From a virus: 64,000 nt of DNA. Where the stretch lies: IMG/VR virus record IMGVR_UViG_3300028024_000105, positions 32,811 to 96,810 of that record, one strand, 5' to 3'. Under the pieces are notes generated by a model. The model had not been told where the DNA came from. It saw only the letters and a program-made list of their open reading frames with translations, and did not search any database. Positions 5,800 through 47,829 of this stretch are shown here, piece after piece. Position numbers and translations under genes: made by a program. Numbering within the stretch: the first letter of the stretch is position 1; each line of letters opens with the position of its first letter.

Positions 5800-5828
5800 G
5801 AAACGGATAGGCGGCAGGGACGTCTTAT
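5800..5828 (+). promoter_or_regulatory. class I (ECF-type) promoter GAAAC-N16-CGTCTTA
   Basis: Member of a recurring GTAAC-N16-CGTC motif family; overlapped by the palindrome TATCTGC-aca-GCAGATA. Confidence 0.65.
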
Positions 5829-7599: not shown

Positions 7600-7628
7600 G
7601 TAACGGGAGAGCAGATAGGCCGTCTCAT
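7600..7628 (+). promoter_or_regulatory. class I promoter GTAAC-N16-CGTCTCA
   Basis: Exact motif with a 16-nt spacer; GCAGATA box inside the spacer. Confidence 0.65.
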
Positions 7629-7653
7629 GAGTATGAACGGAAAGGGATTGACG

Positions 7654-7791
7654 ATGAAGACGACCTTCAAGACCCTGCGGCAGTGGATCGAGTCGAAGTA
7701 CGGCCGGGGCGTGGTGACCGACATCCGGAAGCTGCCGCGCCAGACCCAGCGCTACCTTCGCTCGCAGTGGCAGGAAGAGGGCAACGCATGA
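7654..7791 (+). CDS. small hypothetical protein
   Basis: SD GAAAGGGA; alternative in-frame ATG at 7633. Confidence 0.55.
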   Translation: MKTTFKTLRQWIESKYGRGVVTDIRKLPRQTQRYLRSQWQEEGNA

Positions 7792-8661: not shown

Positions 8662-8844
8662 CCCCTGCCAGCCGGTAAACCCGCAATCCCGAAAACGCCG
8701 TTAGACGCATTGCAGATAGCGGGTATGACCCGGAAGTCATCCCACTAGAATGCGCGCGTCCTAGACCCCTTTGCGGCCTTCCTGGTGCAGATTACGGGGC
8801 GGGGTGCTGGTCGTGCCAAGCCGTTCCGCCCTGTCCAAGAGTGC

Positions 8845-10064: not shown

Positions 10065-10268
10065 ATGATGAACACCAAGCCGCCGGTCGGATCGCCCGAG
10101 TGGGACCAGCAGTACACCTTGGGCTGGTCCGCCGGGCTCGATATCCTGCGCCTGGACCGCCGCGCCGCCTTCAACTGGGAGTTCGAGGTCTACCGCGCCA
10201 ACCGGGACCCGTCGGCCTTCGACATGGGCAAAGCTGACGTGATCTCGGAACATCGGGTTGGATTCTAG
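10065..10268 (+). CDS. hypothetical protein
   Basis: ATG 4 nt after the promoter motif. Confidence 0.55.
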   Translation: MMNTKPPVGSPEWDQQYTLGWSAGLDILRLDRRAAFNWEFEVYRANRDPSAFDMGKADVISEHRVGF

Positions 10269-10286
10269 GACAGAAAGGACACGACG

Positions 10287-10709
10287 ATGACGACCGAACA
10301 GGAAGTGACCGACATGATCGCGCGGCAGGTGATCGGCCTGCTGGACTCCACGATGGCGAACCTGCAGACCGCCCGGGAGAGGATCGCGGGCCTGGGCCCA
10401 GTGCTCGCGGTGCATGCACCCGGTGGAGGTCCCGGCCGCCCGTGCTTCTGCAACACCTTCGTCCGGCCGGAGCGCCAAGTCACCAAGCTGGCGGGCATCG
10501 TCGCCGCCAATTACGCGCGCACGGCCGTGCCCCTGGAAGGCACCCTGGAAAGCCTGCACCTGCAGCACCCGGTATATGTTCGCGAGGCCATCCGCAAGGC
10601 GTTCTTCGACGGCGTCCGGGCCGCTTCGGATCTGAGCGCCGCGCGCCAGAAGTGGCCGGACGATCCGCGCCATGGCAAGGGCGGCTATCACGACAACCGG
10701 AGGAAATGA
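10287..10709 (+). CDS. hypothetical protein
   Basis: SD AGAAAGGA. Confidence 0.7.
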   Translation: MTTEQEVTDMIARQVIGLLDSTMANLQTARERIAGLGPVLAVHAPGGGPGRPCFCNTFVRPERQVTKLAGIVAANYARTAVPLEGTLESLHLQHPVYVREAIRKAFFDGVRAASDLSAARQKWPDDPRHGKGGYHDNRRK

Positions 10710-11307: not shown

Positions 11308-11311
11308 CTAC

Positions 11312-11530
11312 ATGAACAGAATGGAGACCAAGATGACGGAGGCCCAAGCCCTCAAGGAAGCCCAGCGGCAGGTCCACGGAGTGCTTGCGATCAAGAAGTA
11401 TTTCCGCCTGCGCTACGACGGCCGGAGCGCCGACCGCCTGAACCCCACGCACCACGTCCGGGTGTTGTCCACCCGCAGCGGGTTCCGACCCTTCACCCTG
11501 TTCATCACGGACACGAAGGTGGCCCGGTGA
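11312..11530 (+). CDS. hypothetical protein
   Basis: ATG 4 nt after the promoter; alternative start 11333. Confidence 0.55.
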   Translation: MNRMETKMTEAQALKEAQRQVHGVLAIKKYFRLRYDGRSADRLNPTHHVRVLSTRSGFRPFTLFITDTKVAR

Positions 11531-13980: not shown

Positions 13981-14210
13981 GAGCGAGAAGCCGACGTAAC
14001 CCGGGGCTGCACCTGTACGTAGCTGCGCACCGTACAGCAGGGCCTGCCAATACCGGGGTACATCGCTCAAAGACAGCTCGTCGGGCGCGAACGCGGGCGA
14101 AAACGGCCGTAGCGTGACAGCCGGAGAGACGGCAAAAATTCGCCCTGGTGGTGGCTTTCTGCTGCTTCACCACCTTCGCCGCGTTGGAAGCCGAGCAGCG
14201 TCACGACGCG
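13981..14210 (+). ncRNA. candidate structured ncRNA or long structured leader
   Basis: Starts exactly at the +1 predicted from CGTCCTAC (13968-13975); nested helices GAGCGA/TCGCTC, CTGTACG/CGTACAG, AACGCGG/CCGCGTT, GGTGGTG/CACCACC. Confidence 0.6.
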
Positions 14211-14245
14211 GACAGGGTTGGAATCGTGGAAACGGAGTAGTGGTC

Positions 14246-15645: not shown

Positions 15646-16461
15646 GTGATCCATTTCACGTATCCGGACGGCTACTTCGAGAAGCGGCGCGACCTGACCA
15701 TCGGAAAGGTCGGTTACTGGGACGAACAGCAGCATCCGCGCGCCGAGGACGGCAAGTTCACGGACGGATCTGGCGGCGCCACGTCGAGCGACGGTCCGGG
15801 TATCCCGAGTTCGGCCGCAGGTGCGGCGCTCGTGAGTCGGGCCGGACAGATGCCCAACTACGAGAGCGTCGCCGACTTTGCGGCGGCTCGAGAGTACATG
15901 GGCAAGCTGGGCACGAACCTGCTGGTGCTGAACGGTGCGAATCCCTCAGACGTTCGTGTCGCGATGCAGTCGACACGTGACTTCATTGAGAAGACCGGCC
16001 TGTCGCCCGAGCGTCTGTACGTGACAACCGACCAATTTATGGTCGACCGCTTCGGCGCACCCACGGCAGACTTGGCTCAGGCTCTGTACGATCCGCAGAC
16101 CCGTGCTGTCATGTCGTCGAAGCTGACCGCACTTTCGGCGAAGCCTACTCAGCCCGGCGGATTCACCATCGGCGAGGACGGATTCAACGAGGCGCAGACG
16201 GCTCTGTGGCACGAGTTCGGTCACTCCGTGCACTTCACGGCCCACGTGGGTTCGCCTGGTCGAGTCCCGCCCAATTTCCGAGGGGCGGTAGAATCGCATT
16301 TGGTTGGAACGTTCAAGGCTCAGGGCATGTCAGACTACGGAGTGACCATGCGAGCCGAGTTCGTGGCCGAGTACGTGTCCGGCCGCATGATGGGCCGCAA
16401 GTTCGGACCGGCGGTCCACGAGGCGTATATCCGATACGGTGGCCCGAAGTTGGGAGACTAA
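15646..16461 (+). CDS. zincin-like metallopeptidase with N-terminal HPR peptide
   Basis: WHEFGHSVH (HExxH), then SDYGVTMRAEFVAE; GTCCAAG-N5-GTG start. Confidence 0.8.
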   Translation: MIHFTYPDGYFEKRRDLTIGKVGYWDEQQHPRAEDGKFTDGSGGATSSDGPGIPSSAAGAALVSRAGQMPNYESVADFAAAREYMGKLGTNLLVLNGANPSDVRVAMQSTRDFIEKTGLSPERLYVTTDQFMVDRFGAPTADLAQALYDPQTRAVMSSKLTALSAKPTQPGGFTIGEDGFNEAQTALWHEFGHSVHFTAHVGSPGRVPPNFRGAVESHLVGTFKAQGMSDYGVTMRAEFVAEYVSGRMMGRKFGPAVHEAYIRYGGPKLGD

Positions 16462-16462
16462 G

Positions 16463-16582
16463 ATGACGCCGAACAAGCCGTTGACCCCCGAGCAGGTCCA
16501 GCAGGTCTGGGACAAGATCGAGCAGGCCAAGCCCGATCTGCCCGAGAACTCCAAGGACAAGCCGGACCAGCCCAAGCCATAG
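16463..16582 (+). CDS. 39 aa peptide downstream of the peptidase
   Basis: MTPNKPLTPEQVQQVWDKIEQAKPDLPENSKDKPDQPKP; SD GGAG. Confidence 0.5.
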   Translation: MTPNKPLTPEQVQQVWDKIEQAKPDLPENSKDKPDQPKP

Positions 16583-16604
16583 TCAGCAGACCTTTCTGTT
16601 CTAA

Positions 16605-16642
16605 CCCCGCCGGGAACTTATCGAGACCCGGCGGGGTTTTTT
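16605..16642 (+). terminator. intrinsic terminator with a 12-nt conserved loop
   Basis: CCCCGCCGGG-aacttatcgaga-CCCGGCGGGG-TTTTTT. Confidence 0.85.
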
Positions 16643-16719
16643 ATTTTCTATATTCCGAATCATTCAAGATCCCTTCGACCGCGCGTCCTACGGGACATGA
16701 CGGTAGAAAGGAAAGAGGA

Positions 16720-17571
16720 ATGACCATCGAAGTTCGAACCAAGGCACAATTCGAGGCCGCGCTCAAGATTCCCAACTCCATCATCGACATCCTGGAGGGC
16801 ATCTACGAGCTGGTGACGTACGGAAGCGAGGCTCCGTTCATCCGGCTGTTCGGCAAGGCCGAACTGACCGTCGAGGCGCGGGGATCGTCCCAGCCGCGCG
16901 TCGAGGCGTGGGGATCGTCCCAGCCGCGCGTCGAGGCGTGGGGATCGTCCCAGCCGCGCGTCGTGGCGTGGGAATCGTCCCAGCCGCGCGTCGAGGCGTG
17001 GGGATCGTCCCAGCCGCGCGTCGAGGCGTGGGAATCGTCCCAGCCGCGCGTCGTGGCGTGGGAATCGTCCCAGCCGCGCGTCGAGGCGTCCGGTTTCGTG
17101 CAGCTTTCGCTTCTCGGCAAGATCGTCGCGAAAGCTGCAGCGAAGGTCGCCGTGCTGATCGAGGGTGACGGCCCGAAGGTCACGGGCGGGAAGCAGATCC
17201 GCCGCCAGCTCTTCAAGAACGGGAAGGGATGGTGCGAGTATTACGGAGTCCCGGTCAAGGCAGGGAAGGCCATCGTGTTCAAGGCCCTCGACAAGGACCT
17301 TCGGAGCAGTCACGGTCTCGTCTATCCGGTCGGCGCGACCGTCAAGAGCGACGGCTGGAACAAGAACGAGTGCGATCAGGGACTCCACTTCATCCCTACG
17401 CCCAAGATGGGATACGAGTTCGCGCCGGAGGCCGAGCGGTTCGTCGCGTGTGAAGTCGCCGTGAAGGACATGCTCGTCTTCTCCACCGGCTCGTACCCGA
17501 ACAAGGCGAAGGCTCCGGAGTGCAAGGTCCTCTACGAGTGCAACGACGACGGCGAGGAGATCAAGAAGTAG
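16720..17571 (+). CDS. decapeptide-repeat protein with a C-terminal conserved phage domain
   Basis: 7 copies of V[EV]A[WR][GE]SSQPR; C-terminal VFKA...YPVG...ECDQGLHF. Confidence 0.8.
   Translation: MTIEVRTKAQFEAALKIPNSIIDILEGIYELVTYGSEAPFIRLFGKAELTVEARGSSQPRVEAWGSSQPRVEAWGSSQPRVVAWESSQPRVEAWGSSQPRVEAWESSQPRVVAWESSQPRVEASGFVQLSLLGKIVAKAAAKVAVLIEGDGPKVTGGKQIRRQLFKNGKGWCEYYGVPVKAGKAIVFKALDKDLRSSHGLVYPVGATVKSDGWNKNECDQGLHFIPTPKMGYEFAPEAERFVACEVAVKDMLVFSTGSYPNKAKAPECKVLYECNDDGEEIKK
16870..17088 (+). repeat. 30-bp coding tandem repeat, about 7.3 copies
   Basis: Unit gtcgaggcgtggggatcgtcccagccgcgc with minor variants. Confidence 0.95.
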
Positions 17572-17592
17572 ATCAACGCCCTTTTCTTTCAA

Positions 17593-17630
17593 CCCCGGCG
17601 ATGCATCCAAGTGTCGCCGGGGTTTTTCTT
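17593..17630 (+). terminator. intrinsic terminator
   Basis: CCCCGGCGA...TCGCCGGGG-TTTTTCTT. Confidence 0.85.
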
Positions 17631-17674
17631 TTCCCACCGTTCGAATTGTGTTTCGTCACCGCGTCTGACGGAGC

Positions 17675-18160
17675 ATGCAAGCGACCCTGGACGCGCGGCG
17701 CATCCGGCTGACGGCGCCGCCGAGCCATTCGTCCGAGGGTACACCGCCGGTTCTCCTAGACGGCGTCGTGATTGGTCGAGCCCGGCGAAGCACCAGCCGA
17801 CTGGTGTTCGGGTACGGCCGGTACATCGTGAAGGTCGGCCACCAGAGCAGGAACGAAGTCGAAGTCTGGGATGGGCTTCCCGATGTAGACCGGCCGTACT
17901 TCGCGGCCCCAGTGGCGTGGGGGACCGTTGAAGGCGACGTCGAGCGCCGTTGGTGGGTCGCCCAGCGCGTGCTCCCGATCAAGCGTGCCCTTCAGTGCTA
18001 CAGCCTGGCCGAGTGGCAGACCGCCTGGGAGGAACTCTATCCCGTGCTTCTGCGCAACGACATCCGCGACGTGCTGTTCGACGAGGTCATCGGCATGCCG
18101 CGTCCGCACAACTGGACCATCGTCGATGACGCTCCTGTCGTGTTCGATTACGCTTCGTAG
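17675..18160 (+). CDS. small protein-kinase-like fold protein (putative)
   Basis: SRLVF, IVKV, NEVEVW, WVAQ, DIRDV...HNW...VVFDY; CGTCTGAC-N5-ATG start. Confidence 0.55.
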   Translation: MQATLDARRIRLTAPPSHSSEGTPPVLLDGVVIGRARRSTSRLVFGYGRYIVKVGHQSRNEVEVWDGLPDVDRPYFAAPVAWGTVEGDVERRWWVAQRVLPIKRALQCYSLAEWQTAWEELYPVLLRNDIRDVLFDEVIGMPRPHNWTIVDDAPVVFDYAS

Positions 18161-18172
18161 CCGGAGACCGAA

Positions 18173-18385
18173 ATGATCCACAGCGTGCAGATGCGTCCGT
18201 TGCTGAAAGGCGAAGCCTATCCGCCGGAAACCCGGGACATGAACCGGACGCCGCCGAAGCCCGCGCGATGCGAGGGATGCAAGGCGGTCCACACGCCGCG
18301 CGACCCGCTCTTCAAGGCGACGCCGATGATGGCGCCAGAGTTCATCACGTGCTGGTACTGCTTCCAGATGGGGAAGTCGGGCTAG
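18173..18385 (+). CDS. small Zn-binding protein
   Basis: CEGC...CWYC; SD GGAG. Confidence 0.55.
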   Translation: MIHSVQMRPLLKGEAYPPETRDMNRTPPKPARCEGCKAVHTPRDPLFKATPMMAPEFITCWYCFQMGKSG

Positions 18386-18606
18386 CTGTACTGCTCCGCG
18401 TAGGGCTGCAGAGCCTGGATCACGGTAGGTGGGATGTCGATCTCTTCGGTACCGCTGGTCGTGCCCACTTCGAGGGCGAAGGCGAGGGACGCCGACTCTC
18501 GTCCGCCCGGTGCGAAGACGAACCCCTGGTACTCGCCGGGCTCGCGAGTCGATCCGTCCAGTTCCATCCACCACCCCAAGGGCAGCCTGATCTTCTTGTT
18601 GGCCAT
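18382..18606 (-). CDS. hypothetical protein
   Basis: SD AGAAAGGA; class I promoter on the - strand at 18632-18660. Confidence 0.7.
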   Translation of the reverse strand: MANKKIRLPLGWWMELDGSTREPGEYQGFVFAPGGRESASLAFALEVGTTSGTEEIDIPPTVIQALQPYAEQYS

Positions 18607-18631
18607 CGTCGTGTCCTTTCTGTTCATGTAG

Positions 18632-18715
18632 GTAAGACGCCGAGGGCTCTCGTTCGTTACCGGGAATGCAGATAATCGCATTCCGTGTAACAGTCATGCA
18701 GGTTTGGCGTCTCAC
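18632..18715. promoter_or_regulatory. divergent pair of class I promoters with a central TGCAGATA box
   Basis: - strand GTAAC(18660-18656)-N16-CGTCTTAC; + strand GTAAC(18687)-N16-CGTCTCAC(18708). Confidence 0.7.
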
Positions 18716-18739
18716 TCATGTGAACAGAAAGGAGATCGG

Positions 18740-20188
18740 ATGAACTGGTTCGAGGTCGACAAGAAGGGCCTAGCCAATCTGCTGGGACGCCGGGGCAAGG
18801 CGTTCCTCGTGCACGAGCTGGTCCAGAACGCCTGGGACACGAACGCGACGCGCGTCGACGTGAACCTCGTGTCGCTGCCCGGCCGCAAGCTGGCCCGGCT
18901 GACCGTGGAAGACGACGACCCGGAGGGCTTCAAGGACATCTCGCACGCCTTCACGCTCTTCGCGGAGTCCGCCAAGAAAGGCGACGCCGAGAAGCGTGGG
19001 CGCTTCAACCTTGGCGAGAAGCTCGTCCTCGCGCTCTGCAAAGAGGCGAAGATCACGACGACGACCGGAGGGGTCAAGTTCAGCGACAAGGGGCGCCAAG
19101 TGATCGGCGCCACGACCATGTCCGGTTCCATCTTCGAAGCCCTGATCCCGCTGACCGACGCCGAGTTGGGCGAGATGACCAAGTCGGTCGCGTGTCTGAT
19201 CCCGCCCGCCGGGATCGCCACGTTCTACAACGGCGACGCGCTCCTGGAGCGCATGCCGCTCCACGAGTTCGAGATCACGCTCCCGACGGAGATCGCCAAC
19301 GCCGAGGGCCAGCTCCGGCGGACCGAGCGCAAGACCAAGGTGCAGGTCTTCGATCCGCAGGATGGAGAGCAGGCCAGCATCTACGAGATGGGCATCCCCA
19401 TCGTCGAGACCGAGGACAAGTGGCACTACAACGTGCTGCAGAAGGTCCCGCTCAACATGGATCGGGACAACGTGACGCCGCACTACCTCAAGACGGTGCG
19501 CGCGGCCGTGCTGAACGCCATGCACGAGAAGCTCACGCCCGAGGACGCCAGCACCCCGTGGGTGCGCGAGGGCGCGGCCGACGAGAACGCCACCAAGGAA
19601 GCCACCGAGAAGGTGATGGACCTTCGCTTCGGGAAGAAGCGCGTCATCTTCGACCCCTCCGACCTGGAGGGCAACAAGCTCGCCGTGTCCGAAGGCTACA
19701 CCGTGATTCCGCCCCGGTCCCTGAACAAGGACGAGTGGGACAACGTCCGCAAGCACGACCTAGCAAAGCCCGCCGGGCAGGTCACGCCGTCGCCCAAGCC
19801 CTACTCGCCCGAGGGCGACCCGCTCAAGATCCTGCCCGAGCTGGAGTGGACCGACCCCATGAAGCGGGTGGCCGAGTACGCGCGCTGGCTCGCGCAGGAG
19901 CTGCTGGGGAACAACCGCCTGCACGTGATCATCGCGCGCGAGGCAACGTGGCCTTACGGCGCGACCTACGGCATGGATCAGTTGACCCTCAACCTGGGCC
20001 GACTGGGGCACGACTGGTTCAAGTCGGTCGGCCAGCACACGGATCGCTTGCTGATCCATGAGTTCGGGCACCACTACGCGGCGGACCACCTGTCGAAGGA
20101 ATACTACGATGCCCTGTGCAAGCTCGGCGCGAAGATGACGGCCTTGGCCCTGCAGTACCCGGAGGTCTTCAAGGGTTTCCGGATCTGA
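18740..20188 (+). CDS. GHKL (HSP90/MutL-like) ATPase fused to a C-terminal zincin motif
   Basis: VHELVQNAWD, VEDDDPEG, RGRFNLGEK, GSIF; C-terminal LLIHEFGHH...DHL. Confidence 0.8.
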   Translation: MNWFEVDKKGLANLLGRRGKAFLVHELVQNAWDTNATRVDVNLVSLPGRKLARLTVEDDDPEGFKDISHAFTLFAESAKKGDAEKRGRFNLGEKLVLALCKEAKITTTTGGVKFSDKGRQVIGATTMSGSIFEALIPLTDAELGEMTKSVACLIPPAGIATFYNGDALLERMPLHEFEITLPTEIANAEGQLRRTERKTKVQVFDPQDGEQASIYEMGIPIVETEDKWHYNVLQKVPLNMDRDNVTPHYLKTVRAAVLNAMHEKLTPEDASTPWVREGAADENATKEATEKVMDLRFGKKRVIFDPSDLEGNKLAVSEGYTVIPPRSLNKDEWDNVRKHDLAKPAGQVTPSPKPYSPEGDPLKILPELEWTDPMKRVAEYARWLAQELLGNNRLHVIIAREATWPYGATYGMDQLTLNLGRLGHDWFKSVGQHTDRLLIHEFGHHYAADHLSKEYYDALCKLGAKMTALALQYPEVFKGFRI

Positions 20189-20207
20189 ACTAGCCTTTCT
20201 GTTCTGA

Positions 20208-20250
20208 CCCCCGGCAGGAATTTATCGAGACCTGCCGGGGGTTCTTTTTT
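20208..20250 (+). terminator. intrinsic terminator with a 12-nt conserved loop
   Basis: CCCCCGGCAGG-aatttatcgaga-CCTGCCGGGGG-TTCTTTTTT. Confidence 0.85.
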
Positions 20251-28231: not shown

Positions 28232-28462
28232 CTACTCCTGTGTCCTCAACCACTCCAGCAGGTCGGGCTTGCGGAACATCACGCGGCGCCGACCGATGCG
28301 GACCTTGATCTCGAGAAGTGCGGCACCCAGCGGATCAGTGATTCCGCTCTTGGCGCGCTTCATGGTCTGGCGGACTGCGGCGGGAGAGCGGCCGACGTAC
28401 CTGGCGACTTCGTCGACGGTGATCAGGGGTGCGTCAGCCGGGCTCGTACGCTCTTGTCCCAT
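28232..28462 (-). CDS. excisionase-like winged HTH
   Basis: LITVDEVARYVGRSPAAVRQ...VRIGRRRVMFRKPDLLEWL; CGTCTGAC-N5-ATG. Confidence 0.75.
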   Translation of the reverse strand: MGQERTSPADAPLITVDEVARYVGRSPAAVRQTMKRAKSGITDPLGAALLEIKVRIGRRRVMFRKPDLLEWLRTQE

Positions 28463-36243: not shown

Positions 36244-39162
36244 ATGCGGTACGTGCAGTTCCTGAAGGACCAGTTCCAGAACTTCGTCAACGGGGTGCCG
36301 CGTGAGCAGGTCGAAGAGACCGTCATCGCCCTTCGAACCCCCGTCGCGAAAGCGAAGAAATCCCAGCCGCAGGCTTCCGACGATCCGATCTTCGACGATC
36401 TGCGCACGCCCATGGTGGCAGAGCGCTACACCGAGGCGGACCTTCGGGACTTCCTGAACCTCTACTCCTCGCACACCTGGACGTTCCGCTGTGCCAACAC
36501 CATCGCCACGGCAGCGGCGACGGTCGATTTCGTCTTCAAGAAGGGCAAGGACGAGATCGAGGAAGAGGACCGGAGCGGCTTCCTGAAGCAGCCCAACTTC
36601 TTCCAGACCTGGTACGATCTGTTCGAGACCACCTTCCTGCATCTCGAGCTGGCGGGCAACTCGTTCTGGGAGATCCAGCGGCAGGACAAGGAGATCGTCA
36701 ACATCTTCCCGCTGCGCCCGGACCGTATCACCATCGTGCCGGATGCCAAGAAGCGCGTCCTGCAGTACGAGTACAACGTCAACGGCGAGATCATCCGCTA
36801 CGAGCCCGAAGAGATCCTGCACCTGAAGTACGCTGACGCGAAGGCCGAGTTCTGGGGCATCGCGCCCGCGTCGGCCGCGCGCAATACGATCACGCTGGAT
36901 TTCTACGCCATCGCCTGGAACAAGGACTTCTTCAACCACGGCGCCGAGCCCGGCTTCGTTCTCGAGACCGAGAACACGCTGACGGACATGGCGTTCAACC
37001 GGCTCCAGAAGCTCTGGGGCAAACGCCATCGCGGCAAGCCGCACGAGTTCGCGCTGCTCGAAGAGGGCCTGAAGTACAAGGCCGTCACGTCGAATCACGC
37101 GGACATGCAGTATCTGGAGGGCCGAGACAAGAACGCCGAGGAGATCGGTGGCGCCTACAACGTGCCCCCGTTCTTCCTGGGTCGGGACGGTGGCGGCCCG
37201 CCCAACGAGCAGAAGAAGCGACTCTACCAGACGAACGTCATCCCGAAGCTGACGAAGCTCGGCAAGTTCCTGAACGCCTTCCTGTTCTCGTCTCAGGGTG
37301 TGCGCATCGACTTCCTCACGAAGTCGCTGCCCATGATCATCGAAGACGAGGAGATCAAGGCGCGCATCGCCCAGTCGAACGTCAACCACGGCATCTGGAC
37401 CCAGAACGAGGCGCGCCACATCGAGTGGGGCATGAAGCCCGTGGCCTGGGGCGACACGTGGTGGCAGTCGGTTGGTCTGTTCGACACTCAGAAGCCCGAG
37501 ACCCGTCCGGTGCAGGGTGGCATCGCCGGGGATTTGCCCGGCAATGCAGGTTCCGGCGCTGGCAAGTCGTCCGGATTCAATCATCCTTCGCAGATTCCGG
37601 CTCCTACTTCGAAGGGCTGCACCTTCGAGTCCGATGGAGTGGACTTCGAGAAGGCCGACGAGATCGGCATGGTCCCCATCCTCAAGATGGAGGTCCGTGA
37701 GCCCGACTGGGCCGACAAGCAGGAAGTCGAGGACTGGCAGCAGTTCATGTTCTGGAAGCAGCTCGTCGGACCGGACGAGCTGGAGCTGCGGCGTCAGTTC
37801 CGTGGCTTCTTCAAGGGACAGGGCGAACGCATCCTGCCGCGCATCGCGCATCTGTGGCCGATGCACAAGGCCGAGGAGAGCGGCGACGCCCGCAAGATCG
37901 CCATCGTGGAGATCCTGAAGCTGCTCTTCGACGAACAGCTCGAGGAGAACGTCCTGCGCTCGTTCATGGTTCCCATCGCCGAGAACTCGGTCCGCAAGTA
38001 CGGCCAGAATCTGCTCACCACCAAGAACATCCCGATCCCCTTCCGCATGAGCGACCCGAACGTGCGGAAGTTCATGGAGAAGTACACCGCGTCGCAGGTC
38101 CGCCACATCAGCGAGACCACCCGGCAGATCCTGAAGGACCAGCTCCTGAAGGCAGCCGACGCGGGCGAGCCCATCAAGGCCGTCCTCGCGCGCGTGCGCG
38201 ATGCGTTCGACGGCAATGTCTCGGTGGCCCGCGCCCAGCGCATCGCGCGGACGGAGCTGGTCACCATGTCCAACAACGCCCGCCTGCTCGCGGCCCAGCA
38301 GTCCGGCGTCCTGACCCAGAAGCGGTGGATCTCCGAGAAGCTCCCCACGACCCGGCAGGAGAAGACCGGCGCCAACCACATCAATATGCACGGCATCCAG
38401 ATGGCCATCAACCAGCCGTTCGAGGTCCCCAACCGCAAGGGCGGCGTCGACCTGATGGACGTCCCTGGCGCCAACTCCGGATCGGCCGAGAACGTCTGCA
38501 ACTGCGTCTGCGTCGCCAGCTTCTCCGGCAATCGCGACGCCTTCGCCGACCTGATCGCGCCCCCCGACGAGGTCCCGCCGGACGCCAAAGTGATCGGCAA
38601 GTTGGCCGATCAGATTGCTGCCCTGGAGAAGTGCAACGCCGAGCTGGCCGAGCAGCTTCAGACTCTTCTCGCCGACGCCGAGACGGAGCCGGAACCCGAT
38701 CCCGAACCGCCAGCGCCCCCGGCTCCCCCCGCGCCGAACGTCACGAACGTGACCGTGAACGTGGCGCCGTCGCCCGCGCCCAACATCACCAACCAGATCG
38801 ACGTCAAGCCCTCCGATGTGAAGGCGCCGGACGTGAACGTGGAAGTCGACGTGAATCCGACCCCGATCAACGTGGAGGTCGAGGCACCCGACGTGCACAT
38901 CGACAACCACAATCAGATCGACGTCGAGCCCGCTCCCGTGCAGGTCGACAAGGCCGCCCCGCAGCCGGTGATCGTCAACGTGCCCGCGCCCATCGTCACC
39001 GTTGAGGTCCACCCCGAGATCAAGGCTCCGGACGTGCACGTGGAGGTCAATCCCGAGATCAAGATCCCGGCAACGACCGAGAAGACCACGATCATCCGCG
39101 ACCCGAAGACCCGCGAGATCAAGGGTAGCATCAAGGAAATCACTCCGGAGAACCCGGCGTGA
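36244..39162 (+). CDS. HK97-family portal fused to a MuF-like head morphogenesis domain and a Pro/Val-rich tail
   Basis: Portal: LKQPN, LELAGNSF, PLRPD, EILHLK, GIAP, FFNHGAEPG, LEEGLKY, YNVPP. MuF: RAQRIARTE, KRWIS, NCVC. Confidence 0.9.
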   Translation: MRYVQFLKDQFQNFVNGVPREQVEETVIALRTPVAKAKKSQPQASDDPIFDDLRTPMVAERYTEADLRDFLNLYSSHTWTFRCANTIATAAATVDFVFKKGKDEIEEEDRSGFLKQPNFFQTWYDLFETTFLHLELAGNSFWEIQRQDKEIVNIFPLRPDRITIVPDAKKRVLQYEYNVNGEIIRYEPEEILHLKYADAKAEFWGIAPASAARNTITLDFYAIAWNKDFFNHGAEPGFVLETENTLTDMAFNRLQKLWGKRHRGKPHEFALLEEGLKYKAVTSNHADMQYLEGRDKNAEEIGGAYNVPPFFLGRDGGGPPNEQKKRLYQTNVIPKLTKLGKFLNAFLFSSQGVRIDFLTKSLPMIIEDEEIKARIAQSNVNHGIWTQNEARHIEWGMKPVAWGDTWWQSVGLFDTQKPETRPVQGGIAGDLPGNAGSGAGKSSGFNHPSQIPAPTSKGCTFESDGVDFEKADEIGMVPILKMEVREPDWADKQEVEDWQQFMFWKQLVGPDELELRRQFRGFFKGQGERILPRIAHLWPMHKAEESGDARKIAIVEILKLLFDEQLEENVLRSFMVPIAENSVRKYGQNLLTTKNIPIPFRMSDPNVRKFMEKYTASQVRHISETTRQILKDQLLKAADAGEPIKAVLARVRDAFDGNVSVARAQRIARTELVTMSNNARLLAAQQSGVLTQKRWISEKLPTTRQEKTGANHINMHGIQMAINQPFEVPNRKGGVDLMDVPGANSGSAENVCNCVCVASFSGNRDAFADLIAPPDEVPPDAKVIGKLADQIAALEKCNAELAEQLQTLLADAETEPEPDPEPPAPPAPPAPNVTNVTVNVAPSPAPNITNQIDVKPSDVKAPDVNVEVDVNPTPINVEVEAPDVHIDNHNQIDVEPAPVQVDKAAPQPVIVNVPAPIVTVEVHPEIKAPDVHVEVNPEIKIPATTEKTTIIRDPKTREIKGSIKEITPENPA

Positions 39163-46382: not shown

Positions 46383-46485
46383 CGCGCCCCTTTCATCGAC
46401 ACCACATCGAACTAGCCGACCTATCGCCGCACACGTTGTGCTGCACGGCCTTGGAGTCTTCAGCAAGTACAGAACGAGAATTGCC

Positions 46486-47829
46486 ATGGGCAACACGAAG
46501 CTCCGGGCGGACGCGGCGGCCAACAACGAGGCCATCAAGAAAATGATCGCCGACAAGGCGACGCAGGGCATGACCAAAGACCAGTTCGAGAAGGAGCTGG
46601 ACAAGCGCATGGCCGACGAGCGTCAGCGCACGCTCGGCGAGATGCGGAAGGGCCAGTACCACCCCGACCTGGTCCGCAACCCGGACAAGTTCGAGAACCT
46701 CGAGATCCTGATGGAGAAGTCGGATCGGGGCGACGTGGTCGAGTTCCAGAAGTGGAACGACGACATCGTCATCCTGTCCAGCCTCCTGAAGGTGCATCCG
46801 CAGGAGCTGAAGCACTTCAAGAAGTACGCCCCGAAGTTCAAGGGCAACGGCTCGTCCGAGATGGCGAAGGCCATGGCGGCGCAGACCGCGTCGCAGGGCC
46901 TGGAGTGGATTCCGACGGACTTCTCCACCGACCTGTTCGACCAGTACCACCTTCTGACGAAGGTGGCCGACCTGTTCGACGAGGTCAACATGCCGTCGAA
47001 CCCCTACAAGCTGCCGTTCGAAGGCGACGACCCCGACACGGTCCTGGGGCACGAGTACAACGACGGCGACACGTCCGAGATCGCGTCCGATGACGCGGGC
47101 ACGGGCAACAACACGATGACCGCCGTGAAGCTGACGACCCGCGTCAACTTCTCGGAGGAGCTGACGGAGGATTCGATCATCCCCGTCCTGCCCATCATCA
47201 AGAAGAAGATGGTCCGCTCCATGGCCATGGGCGTCGAGAGCGCGCTCCTGAACGGCGACACCACGTCGCCCCATCAGGACGTCGACACCACGTCCGCGAC
47301 CGACGTGCGGAAGGCGTGGAAGGGGCTGCGCAAGCTGTCCCAGACCGCCAACGACACGACCCTGACGGCGGTCCCGGCCATCACGGAGATCCGCGCCATG
47401 CTCGCCAAGATGGGCAAGTACGGCGTGAACCCCTCCGACCTGGTCTGGATCTGCGGCGTGAAGGGCTACCAGAAGCTGAAGGGCATGACCGAGGTCCTGA
47501 CGCAGGACAAGTACGGCCCCAAGGCCACCATCTTCAGCGGCCAGCTCGCGAGCCTCGACGGCATCCCCATCGTGGTCTCGGAGAAGCTCCGCGAAGACCT
47601 GAACGCGTCCGGCGTGCGGGACCTGACGACCCAGACGAAGGGCGTCCTGCTCCTGGCCCACCGGGGCTCGTTCCTGCGCGGCCTGCGCCGCCAGCTCACC
47701 GTCAAGCCCTGGATCGACCCGCGCACCGACGCGCAGTCGCTGATCCAGACGTGGCGCGGCTGCTTCATCGCGATGCGCGACGTCACGGCCGAGCCCATCG
47801 TGGTCAAGGGAGTCAACTGGGCGGTGTAA
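46486..47829 (+). CDS. major capsid protein (HK97 fold)
   Basis: GLEWIPTDFS, FSEELTEDS, ESALLNGD, GLRK, LDGIPIVVS; position after the protease/scaffold; followed by a terminator. Confidence 0.9.
   Translation: MGNTKLRADAAANNEAIKKMIADKATQGMTKDQFEKELDKRMADERQRTLGEMRKGQYHPDLVRNPDKFENLEILMEKSDRGDVVEFQKWNDDIVILSSLLKVHPQELKHFKKYAPKFKGNGSSEMAKAMAAQTASQGLEWIPTDFSTDLFDQYHLLTKVADLFDEVNMPSNPYKLPFEGDDPDTVLGHEYNDGDTSEIASDDAGTGNNTMTAVKLTTRVNFSEELTEDSIIPVLPIIKKKMVRSMAMGVESALLNGDTTSPHQDVDTTSATDVRKAWKGLRKLSQTANDTTLTAVPAITEIRAMLAKMGKYGVNPSDLVWICGVKGYQKLKGMTEVLTQDKYGPKATIFSGQLASLDGIPIVVSEKLREDLNASGVRDLTTQTKGVLLLAHRGSFLRGLRRQLTVKPWIDPRTDAQSLIQTWRGCFIAMRDVTAEPIVVKGVNWAV

What the first reader, a model, noticed from the sequence alone, without database searches (positions are those of the whole stretch)
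16697..20250. mRNAs whose 3' end is complementary to their own ribosome-binding site
Seen: in unit 18720-20250 the leader GAACAGAAAGG (18722-18732, containing the SD) is the exact complement of CCTTTCTGTTC (20194-20204), just before the terminator. In unit 16697-17630 the leader GGT-A-GAAAGGAAAG (16702-16715) pairs with CTTTTCTTTC-A-ACC (17581-17594; 13 of 14, one G-U), using a different sequence. A third CCTTTCTGTTC (16591) ends the late kinase/peptidase unit, has no partner that I could find in cis, but matches class I leaders at 18722, 18625(-) and partly 10270 and 11314. Inference: finished transcripts close into a loop that hides the SD, limiting translation to a co-transcriptional pulse; the late copy could silence early mRNAs in trans.
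Basis: partly seen in the sequence, partly recalled or inferred. Interest (0 to 1): 0.78.

Follow-up and report, generated by a model that had tools for sequence, protein, structure and literature searches.

The report
Phage mRNA tails mirror their leaders
In an uncultured soil phage, the bases just before three transcription terminators mirror ribosome-binding leaders, and for one gene the finished mRNA should fold end to end over its own start site. This control is proven in only two bacterial genes, and here it also appears, with a different matching sequence, in an unrelated phage.

Summary
The window lies in a 96.8-kb phage genome with no close relative.

- **Terminators:** only five strong intrinsic terminators exist. 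Three (16605, 17593, 20206) are each preceded within 0-3 nt by CCTTT(T)CT(G/T)TTC.
- **Unit 18722-20250 (GHKL-ATPase/HExxH gene):** the tract is the exact complement of the predicted 5'-terminal 11 nt, including the SD. Whole-transcript folding gives this 5'-3' helix p>=0.99 and extends it over AUG and stop. Its own leader is the best partner among 128 phage leaders.
- **Independent support:** a 51%-identical homologue in another phage contig (L029) has a different SD leader, CGGAGTGAAAGG, and its exact complement abutting an unrelated terminator. A third lineage (L001) has a 27-nt inverted repeat flanking the gene. That is three loci of 105, against 0.17 expected.
- **Unit 16697-17630:** the pairing is real but not beyond chance on its own.
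- **Copy at 16591:** it has no cis partner. Trans silencing and the 'co-transcriptional pulse' remain untested.

Closest known cases are the icaR and hbs 5'/3'-UTR pairings and anti-SD reporter data. Earlier unchecked notes of this scan describe similar leader/trailer mirrors in other phages.

The parts
18687..18715 (+).
   Evidence: The same GTAAC-N16/17-CGTCTyAC architecture precedes the GAAC(A/G)GAAAGG-type leaders at 7621, 11300, 18639(-) and genome 15045. A looser GAAAC form precedes the leader at 5821. The start site is inferred, not shown.
18722..18741 (+). Unit 3 leader: GAACAGAAAGG (18722-18732, holds SD AGAAAGGAG) through AU of the start codon; predicted 5' end of the mRNA
   Evidence: Each base 18722-18732 pairs with 20204-20194 at p 0.99-1.0. 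Bases 18736-18741 pair with 20188-20183 at p about 0.8.
18740..20188 (+). GHKL-type ATPase (HATPase_c_3) with C-terminal HExxH motif, 482 aa; function unknown, mostly viral family
20183..20204 (+). Unit 3 trailer: stop codon region plus anti-leader tract CCTTTCTGTTC (20194-20204)
20206..20250 (+). Terminator T3: 13-bp GC-rich stem, loop AATTTATCGAGAC, then CTTTTTT
   Evidence: -27.7 kcal/mol.
16591..16601 (+). T1 anti-leader tract CCTTTCTGTTC, 9 nt after the stop of ORF 16439-16582; no cis partner found
16605..16650 (+). Terminator T1: stem CCCCGCCGGG/CCCGGCGGGG, loop AACTTATCGAGAC, T tract
   Evidence: -23.2 kcal/mol. One search shows two compensatory stem changes relative to T3.
16684..16719 (+). 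Class A promoter -10-like CGTCCTAC (16684-16691) and unit 2 leader (16697-16719) with SD tract GAAAGGAAAG (16706-16715)
16720..17571 (+). Unit 2 gene, 283 aa, DUF7666 C-terminal domain, seven 30-nt tandem repeats
17579..17590 (+). T2 trailer CCCTTTTCTTTC, pairs with 16706-16718
   Evidence: p about 0.99 for 10 bp. Statistically weak.
17591..17633 (+). Terminator T2
   Evidence: -23.5 kcal/mol.
18615..18625 (-). Identical leader GAACAGAAAGG of the divergent minus-strand class B unit (gene 18606..18382)
10268..10278 (+). Related leader GGACAGAAAGG (gene 10287-10709); the best upstream partner of the T1 tract (13 bp with one G-U), but 6.3 kb away across minus-strand genes

Best explanation
The region 16.5-20.3 kb holds three copies of a terminator-promoter cassette. 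Each cassette has a CU-rich tract resembling the 3' tail of Gram-positive-type 16S rRNA (an anti-ribosome-binding-site tract). A GC-rich terminator hairpin follows 0-3 nt later, then a U tract, then a promoter-like site for the next unit.

In the single-gene ATPase unit, the tract and the last codons are complementary to the first ~20 nt of the mRNA, from the predicted start site through the SD to the AUG. Once RNA polymerase has made the 3' end, the tract can pair with the leader whenever no ribosome sits on it. This closes the mRNA into a panhandle that abuts the terminator hairpin and hides both the SD and the start codon. Full-length mRNAs would then be translated less, and probably decay faster or be cut as double-stranded RNA. 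Most protein would be made while the mRNA is still being transcribed.

- **Shown here:** the complementarity, its position, the predicted folding, and an independent homologous unit with a different but matching leader/trailer pair.
- **Inferred:** the transcription start, pairing in vivo, and the direction and size of the effect.
- **Unit 2:** may work the same way with weaker pairing.
For: 1. The 11/11 complement covers the SD and ends 1 nt before the terminator stem.
2. The partition function of the whole 1528-nt transcript gives p 0.99-1.0 for all 11 pairs. It extends the helix to 18736-41/20183-88.
3. The trailer's best partner among 128 phage leaders is its own: -23.6 against -19.7 kcal/mol for the next.
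4. L029 is 51% identical in protein and has an unrelated terminator and a sigma-70-like downstream promoter. Its SD leader CGGAGTGAAAGG has its exact complement CCTTTCACTCCG, whose last base is the first base of the terminator stem. Pairing probability is about 1.0.
5. Among 105 non-redundant homologue loci, three reach a leader/trailer inverted-repeat score of 11 or more (window 11, L029 12, L001 24). The expectation from 10,920 non-cognate pairs is 0.17.
6. The three lineages are about 51% identical to each other and have no closer relatives in the set.
7. An anti-SD-like tract precedes only 5 of 75 terminator-like hairpins in unrelated loci, and is absent from 2 of the 5 strong terminators in this genome.
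8. CCTCC is depleted on coding sense strands of this phage (48 against 133 expected). This fits the published selection against anti-SD-like sequences.
9. Published experiments show that anti-RBS 8-mers far downstream, including in a 3' UTR, pair with the RBS in vivo, lower translation and speed decay (PMC12697547). icaR does this naturally (PMC3868564).
Against: - There is no transcript data; start site and 3' end are predictions.
- T1 carries the same tract without a cis partner and is a copy of the T3 cassette. The tract could therefore travel with the cassette. Its 12/12 identity is not significantly more than the stems' divergence would give (about 20%, P about 0.07).
- Unit 2's pairing is within chance by duplex energy.
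- Only 2-3 of 105 homologue loci show the feature. Of 11 loci with a terminator after the gene, most show none.
- Thermodynamic folding ignores ribosomes and co-transcriptional folding.
- In hbs a 5'/3' pairing stabilises the mRNA rather than silencing it (PMC5737220), so the sign of the effect is open.
Confidence: 0.5

Rival explanations
1. Cassette by-product. The CU tract belongs to a repeated terminator-promoter cassette, like the PeSL cassettes of T4-type phages, and serves the cassette itself. It might aid termination or 3'-end stability, bind a protein, or act as a short homology for module shuffling. Its match to class B leaders would then have no regulatory role.
For: - Three cassettes align over tract, hairpin, T tract and downstream promoter.
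- T1 has the tract with no cis partner.
- T1 and T3 share a conserved loop that the pairing model does not explain.
- PeSL-type cassettes are documented (PMC2839356, PMC4122927).
Against: - It does not explain L029, where a different leader has its own exact complement on an unrelated terminator.
- It does not explain why the match stops exactly at the predicted start of the transcript.
- The two structural-module terminators work without the tract.
Confidence: 0.2
2. Trans-acting anti-leader. Stable 3' fragments (tract plus terminator hairpin) released from the T1 and T3 units act like 3'UTR-derived small RNAs. They pair with all class B leaders and switch that promoter class's translation down as these units accumulate.
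For: - The 12-nt T1/T3 core pairs with four leaders (genome 15079, 10268, 18606(-), 18740) at about -17.5 kcal/mol. The next leaders reach -14.0 and -13.8, the rest -11.1 or weaker, and the median of 128 leaders is -6.4.
- T1 keeps the exact tract without a cis target.
- A seed directly 5' of a terminator hairpin is the usual layout of 3'UTR-derived sRNAs (general knowledge).
Against: - No processed fragment, timing or expression data exist.
- T1's tract is partly taken up by a small local hairpin.
- T1's conservation is explained equally well by recent cassette duplication.
- L029 shows only the cis pair in the 4.4 kb held.
Confidence: 0.15
3. Protective or recycling closed loop. Pairing of the very 5' end with the 3' region shields the 5' end from 5'-end-dependent RNases. 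In addition, a ribosome stopping at UGA (20186-88) covers the tract and frees the SD beside it, so termination feeds re-initiation. The effect would be positive, not negative.
For: - The helix starts at the predicted first nucleotide and brings the stop and start codons together.
- The hbs 5'/3' pairing protects against RNase Y (PMC5737220).
Against: - In L029 the leader lies inside an upstream ORF (1256-1504), not at a 5' end. End protection therefore cannot be the common function.
- Anti-RBS sequences were repressive in the only systematic test (PMC12697547).
Confidence: 0.1
4. DNA-level inverted repeat. The repeat would be an operator pair for a looping regulator, or the ends of a mobile gene cassette. 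Otherwise it is plain coincidence.
For: - The ATPase gene has a patchy distribution across many phages.
- L001 has a 27-nt inverted repeat flanking the gene, present only twice in that 32-kb genome.
- 11-mers recur by chance within 5 kb.
Against: - The repeats differ completely between lineages.
- No transposase or target duplication is seen.
- In two lineages one arm is the SD and the other abuts a terminator, which points to RNA.
- The position-constrained chance is low.
Confidence: 0.05

Closest known systems
icaR mRNA 5'UTR-3'UTR pairing, Staphylococcus aureus (PMC3868564)
   Same: An anti-SD motif in the 3' UTR pairs with the SD of the same mRNA. In icaR this blocks the initiation complex and creates an RNase III substrate.
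   Different: - In icaR the UCCCCUG motif lies within a long 3' UTR. Here the tract lies 5-10 nt after the stop codon and 0-3 nt before the terminator stem.
- Here the tract reaches the predicted 5' terminal base.
- Here it belongs to a cassette repeated three times, and it is in a phage.
- Nothing has been tested experimentally here.
hbs mRNA 5'/3'-UTR interaction, Bacillus subtilis (PMC5737220)
   Same: A 14-bp long-range pairing joins the two UTRs of one mRNA.
   Different: In hbs the pairing modulates RNase Y cleavage in the leader and protects the mRNA; it does not sequester the SD.
Long-range anti-SD effect in reporter libraries (Gill et al. 2025 preprint, PMC12697547)
   Same: Pyrimidine-rich anti-RBS sequences hundreds of nt downstream, also in a 3' UTR, pair with the RBS in vivo, lower translation and promote decay. 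Such sequences are depleted from genes. This phage also shows CCTCC depletion.
   Different: Those were synthetic 8-mers in B. subtilis, with position-dependent effects. Here a natural 11-19 bp helix is retained at terminators.
PeSL promoter-terminator cassettes of T4-type phages (PMC2839356, PMC4122927)
   Same: Repeated composite terminator stem-loop plus promoter motifs bound small variable gene units.
   Different: From what I read (titles and abstract openings), PeSLs are described as recombination substrates. I did not check whether an anti-leader tract has been reported for them. Shuffling was not tested here.
Lambda sib retroregulation of int (general knowledge, not checked in a paper here)
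   Same: A phage 3' element downstream of a gene lowers that gene's expression after transcription passes it.
   Different: sib acts through a local RNase III hairpin and 3' decay, not by pairing with the ribosome-binding site.

Membership tests
icaR-type 5'-3' UTR SD/anti-SD pairing | The 3' UTR holds a motif complementary to the SD region of the same mRNA | tested here: met
   Unit 3: 11/11 plus 8 further pairs. Unit 2: 10 bp with one G-U plus 2.
icaR-type 5'-3' UTR SD/anti-SD pairing | Leader and trailer lie on one transcript (mapped 5' and 3' ends) | not testable with these tools
   The start site is inferred from promoter-like motifs and the 3' end from terminator prediction. No RNA run holds the phage.
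icaR-type 5'-3' UTR SD/anti-SD pairing | Pairing blocks initiation or triggers RNase III, shown by mutation and compensation | not testable with these tools
   Only thermodynamic prediction is available.
icaR-type 5'-3' UTR SD/anti-SD pairing | Pairing is kept by covariation in homologous units | tested here: inconclusive
   One clear compensatory case (L029) and one long flanking repeat (L001) among 105 loci, which is enriched over non-cognate pairs. Most homologues lack it, and the L171 cluster does not covary.
Intrinsic (Rho-independent) terminators | A GC-rich hairpin followed directly by a U tract at a gene end | tested here: met
   T1 -23.2, T2 -23.5 and T3 -27.7 kcal/mol, each with T4-6.
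PeSL-like mobile regulatory cassettes | A repeated composite terminator plus promoter motif flanks small variable units | tested here: met
   Three alignable cassettes, each followed by CGTC(CT/TG)AC-N5-ATG.
PeSL-like mobile regulatory cassettes | Cassettes mark insertion, deletion or replacement breakpoints between related phages | not testable with these tools
   No close relative was found in any collection.
3'UTR-derived regulatory small RNA | A stable processed 3' fragment with a seed 5' of the terminator acts in trans | not testable with these tools
   Only the seed-like complementarity to class B leaders is seen.

The most novel reading that the evidence does not exclude
Phages build an 'anti-leader' into mobile terminator-promoter cassettes. 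Every unit that ends in such a cassette closes its own mRNA if it carries the shared leader. It also releases a 3' fragment that pairs with all mRNAs of that leader class. This would be a genome-wide RNA timer for one promoter class. It would have arisen repeatedly, with different leader/mirror pairs, in unrelated phages.
Probability: 0.15. Interest if true: 0.78.

Novelty: new variant of a known kind. Interest (0 to 1): 0.57.

Why it matters
Natural 5'-3' UTR pairing that hides a ribosome-binding site is proven for very few bacterial mRNAs. My searches of the held library found no phage case.

Here the device is compact: 11-19 bp directly on the terminator. It is tied to a repeated regulatory cassette. 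It recurs with a compensating sequence around the same gene family in an unrelated phage, which makes it directly testable with simple reporters.

If real, three things follow:
- It gives phages, and gene-expression designers, a self-limiting, protein-free way to cap the output of each transcript.
- 3' ends of phage genes should be read together with their leaders when genomes are annotated.
- It may explain why some small accessory ('moron'-like) units carry their own terminator.

Tried and rejected
- **RNA evidence:** no RNA holder is listed. The only run holding the stretch is the soil metagenome that is probably its source.
- **Close relatives:** none found by megablast, by tblastn with the 627-aa protein next to the portal gene, by the portal protein in IMG/VR, or by a cassette pattern in IMG/VR.
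- **Chance pattern hits:** the class B leader pattern gave one hit inside an unrelated provirus. The L029 leader 17-mer gave five unrelated hits.
- **Unit 2 homologues:** eight loci, none with a terminator, so uninformative.
- **L171/L177/L186:** the SD is complementary to the terminator's 5' arm, but a substitution in L177 is not compensated. I treat this as chance.
- **12-nt complement of the 5865 leader at 8772:** no terminator follows it, and such matches are as common upstream as downstream.
- **Duplex energy over 80-nt trailers:** too noisy, because GC-rich hairpins pair with anything.
- **T1 against T3:** this does not prove constraint on the tract (0 of 12 differences against about 20% in the stems, P about 0.07).
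- **Read-through pairing:** T1's tract does not pair with unit 2's SD in the local fold.
- **Rfam:** no known RNA family at the cassettes.
- **Sigma factor:** no clear phage sigma factor. Only a 17-bit region-4 hit was found, and the record is estimated 73% complete.
- **L029 record:** the rest of it could not be searched.


Full report
**Context**

The window is bases 32811-96810 of a single 96.8-kb contig, 63% G+C. It is a tailed-phage genome. It has a portal gene at 36244-39162 and a major head protein gene at 46438-47829. It came from a soil metagenome.

It has no close relative anywhere I could search:
- no megablast hit, and no tblastn hit for the 627-aa protein next to the portal gene, in GenBank phages;
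- no portal relative in IMG/VR;
- the best homologue of the gene inside the finding is 61% identical among 5.8 billion proteins.

**The observation**

CCTTTCTGTTC and its complement occur four times exactly and seven times with one mismatch, against 0.87 expected. On the sense strand of the genes concerned the copies fall into two groups.

*Leaders.* GAAC(A/G)GAAAGG-type leaders lie just downstream of a promoter-like GTAAC-N16/17-CGTCTyAC. These are at 7621, 11300 and 18708 on the plus strand, 18639 on the minus strand, and one copy outside the window at genome 15045. A looser form lies at 5821. A related leader, GGACAGAAAGG, precedes gene 10287.

*Mirror copies.* Two copies in the mirror orientation lie at 16591 and 20194, each just before a terminator.

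A second promoter-like class, CGTC(CT/TG)AC, sits five bases before an ATG that has no SD. This implies leaderless mRNAs. It lets one infer, by analogy, that class B transcripts start within 0-3 nt of the G at 18722. That start is an inference.

**Terminators**

A hairpin-plus-T-tract scan of the whole genome gives only five strong, intergenic, canonical terminators.
- Three lie at 16605, 17593 and 20206. Each is preceded within 0-3 nt by CCTTT(T)CT(G/T)TTC.
- The two in the structural module (47857, 52194) have no such tract.

The three tract-bearing terminators align as one cassette: tract, hairpin, T tract, then a class A promoter-like site. T1 and T3 share the tract (12/12) and the loop (12/13). 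Their stems differ by two compensatory double changes.

In about 300 kb of unrelated phage loci, only 5 of 75 terminator-like hairpins have any anti-SD-like word in the 18 nt before them. The tract is therefore neither a general property of terminators nor needed by this phage's own terminators.

**Does the RNA fold that way?**

| Unit | Transcript folded | Main helix | Probability | Extension |
|---|---|---|---|---|
| 3 | 18722-20249 | 18722-32 with 20194-204 (11 bp) | 0.99-1.0 | 18733-34/20190-91 and 18736-41/20183-88 |
| 2 | 16697-17630 | 16706-15 with 17581-90 (10 bp, one G-U) | about 0.99 | two more pairs |

All values are from the partition function of the whole predicted transcript. In unit 3 the SD, the AU of the start codon and the stop codon all lie in one interrupted 19-bp helix that ends 1 nt from the terminator stem.

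**Is it more than chance?**

- A bare 11-mer complement of a leader somewhere within 5 kb is not unusual. It occurs for 5 of 128 genes downstream and 8 of 128 upstream, the latter serving as control.
- Position makes unit 3 unusual. Its leader/trailer duplex (-23.6 kcal/mol) is in the top 0.04% of all genome 25-mers. Among 128 phage leaders its own is the best partner of the T3 trailer; the next reaches -19.7.
- Unit 2 is weak. Its -14.5 kcal/mol is in the top 4%. Its own leader ties for first with the 14-nt tract but not with the 24-nt trailer.
- T1 has no cis partner. Its best upstream match is the leader at 10262, 6.3 kb away across minus-strand genes.

**Homologous units elsewhere**

The gene in unit 3 encodes a GHKL-type ATPase with a C-terminal HExxH motif. 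The family is large, mostly viral, and of unknown function. I collected its loci from IMG/VR, JGI metagenomes and GTDB genomes. After removing duplicates, 105 loci had a complete gene and both flanks.

For each locus I scored the best inverted repeat between -70..+3 of the start and -10..+80 of the stop. I compared cognate pairs with all 10,920 non-cognate leader/trailer pairs. Scores of 11 or more occur in 0.165% of non-cognate pairs, so 0.17 loci are expected. Three are observed.

1. **The window** scores 11.
2. **L029** scores 12. This is a 55% G+C contig whose protein is 51% identical.
   - The SD leader CGGAGTGAAAGG lies at -24..-13.
   - Its exact complement CCTTTCACTCCG lies 27 nt after the stop. 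Its last base is the first base of an unrelated terminator hairpin followed by ATTTTTT.
   - Folding gives p about 1.0.
   - The SD core GAAAGG is shared with the window. The flanking bases differ (GAACA against CGGAGT) and the trailer changes with them. This is compensatory covariation in an independent lineage.
   - In L029 the leader lies inside the end of an upstream ORF that overlaps the start. What the two cases share is therefore SD masking, not 5'-end protection.
3. **L001** (the same phage as L062 and L122) scores 24. A 27-nt repeat (26/27) ends exactly at the SD. Its partner lies 36 nt after the stop. It occurs only twice in that 32-kb genome.

The three lineages are about 51% identical to one another, with no closer relatives in the set. 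Excluding the window, because it is the case that prompted the test, two loci at 12 or more are seen against 0.04 expected.

The feature is rare, not universal. Of 11 loci with a terminator after the gene, most show nothing. An apparent match in the L171 cluster fails a covariation check. In a separate scan, the only strong terminators whose preceding 20 nt had a complement of 11 nt or more in the 3.5 kb upstream were again unit 3 and L029, both at this gene's SD.

**Mechanism**

The tract CCUUUCU equals the last seven bases of the Gram-positive-type 16S tail (...CCUCCUUUCU). This is general knowledge; the host is unknown. The tract is therefore an anti-RBS sequence by construction.

- Gill et al. 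(PMC12697547) showed in B. subtilis that anti-RBS 8-mers placed hundreds of bases downstream, including in a 3' UTR, pair with the RBS in vivo, block initiation and speed decay. They also showed that such sequences are depleted from genes.
- This phage shows the same depletion. CCTCC occurs 48 times on coding sense strands, against 133 expected from synonymous-codon shuffles.
- icaR (PMC3868564) is the natural precedent for a 3'-UTR anti-SD that blocks initiation and creates an RNase III site.

My best reading (confidence 0.5) is that the finished ATPase mRNA closes over its own start site and so limits its own translation. Unit 2 possibly does the same more weakly.

The sign of the effect is not certain, because the hbs 5'/3' pairing is protective (PMC5737220).

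The 'co-transcriptional pulse' follows logically if the pairing is inhibitory, but nothing here measures it.

**Rival explanations**

- **Cassette by-product (0.2).** The tract may simply travel with a duplicated terminator-promoter cassette of the PeSL kind (PMC2839356, PMC4122927). T1, which lacks a cis partner, fits this. The T1/T3 comparison cannot exclude it (0/12 changes in the tract against about 20% in the stems, P about 0.07). L029 argues against it as the whole story.
- **Trans-acting anti-leader (0.15).** The T1/T3 core is selective for GAAC(A/G)GAAAGG-type leaders. Four reach about -17.5 kcal/mol, the next two -14.0 and -13.8, the rest -11.1 or weaker, against a median of -6.4. There is no evidence for a stable fragment or for timing.
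- **Positive closed loop (0.1)** and **DNA-level repeat or coincidence (0.05)** are less likely, for the reasons given in the Rival explanations section.

**Earlier notes of this scan**

Unchecked AI notes describe the same layout on other DNA:
- mirror images of a shared early leader just before terminators in a giant phage (e1-5367696);
- a leader/trailer bracket around a DUF932-like gene in a marine phage (e1-5703430);
- an archaeal case (e1-5223874).

They are leads, not evidence. They do suggest that the wide survey proposed under next steps is worth doing.

**Verdict**

- The cis-closure reading is supported for one unit by folding and by independent covariation. It is weak for the second unit and open for the third copy.
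- This is a new variant of a known kind of control (icaR-type). It is compact, sits on the terminator, is borne by a repeated cassette and occurs in phages. It is directly testable with reporters.

Noticed in passing
window 14142-14218 (+): Rfam CyVA-1 RNA (RF02965) scores 49.4 bits against a gathering score of 41.4, E 3e-9. It lies in the non-coding stretch between a class A promoter-like site (13966) and the kinase unit.
   Followed up: no
window 16697-16723 (+): Unit 2 begins with a possible leaderless mini-ORF of eight codons (ATG ACG GTA GAA AGG AAA GAG GAA TGA). It covers the SD and overlaps the main ATG as ATGA. Ribosomes on it would open the leader/trailer helix.
   Followed up: no
window 18604-18631 (-), 11308-11337 (+), 7629-7658 (+): Three class B leaders have an ATG at the predicted start site, in frame with the SD-led ATG 21 nt downstream (MNRKDTTM.., MNRMETKM.., MNGKGLTM..). 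GAAC(A/G)GAAAGG may therefore be both coding (leaderless start) and SD. In unit 3 the same position reads ATG TGA.
   Followed up: partly
window 16575-16740 (+): In a read-through RNA from unit 1, the unit 2 SD region pairs with the promoter-region bases 16659-16680 (local fold z -4.1). Only transcripts started at the class A promoter would then leave the SD free. This resembles the sigma-dependent isoform effect described in PMC8208050.
   Followed up: no
window 16605-16636 and 20206-20243: Terminators T1 and T3 keep a 13-nt loop (AAYTTATCGAGAC, 12/13 identical) while their stems differ by two compensatory changes. The loop's conservation is unexplained.
   Followed up: partly
L001 5935-5961 and 7477-7503 (IMGVR_UViG_3300030329_001258): A 27-nt inverted repeat (26/27) flanks the homologous ATPase gene and ends exactly at its SD. 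It occurs only twice in that 32-kb phage. It could be a long-range RNase III processing stem.
   Followed up: partly
whole genome, coding sense strands: CCTCC is strongly depleted (48 against 133 expected from synonymous-codon shuffles), and so is CTCCTT (5 against 12.7). This fits selection against anti-SD-like words.
   Followed up: partly
window 16880-17090 (+): Seven tandem 30-nt repeats (10-aa units) lie inside the DUF7666 gene of unit 2.
   Followed up: no
protein P0081 (homologue of 18740-20188): One homologue of the GHKL-ATPase/HExxH protein is 753 aa and carries a LAGLIDADG_3 domain, probably an intein. That would suggest the protein matters to its phage.
   Followed up: no
window 28349-28420 (-): The only sigma-factor-like signal in the genome is a 17-bit Sigma70_r4_2 match in a 76-aa ORF. 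The factor that reads the two CGTC-type promoter classes is unidentified, and the record is estimated 73% complete.
   Followed up: no
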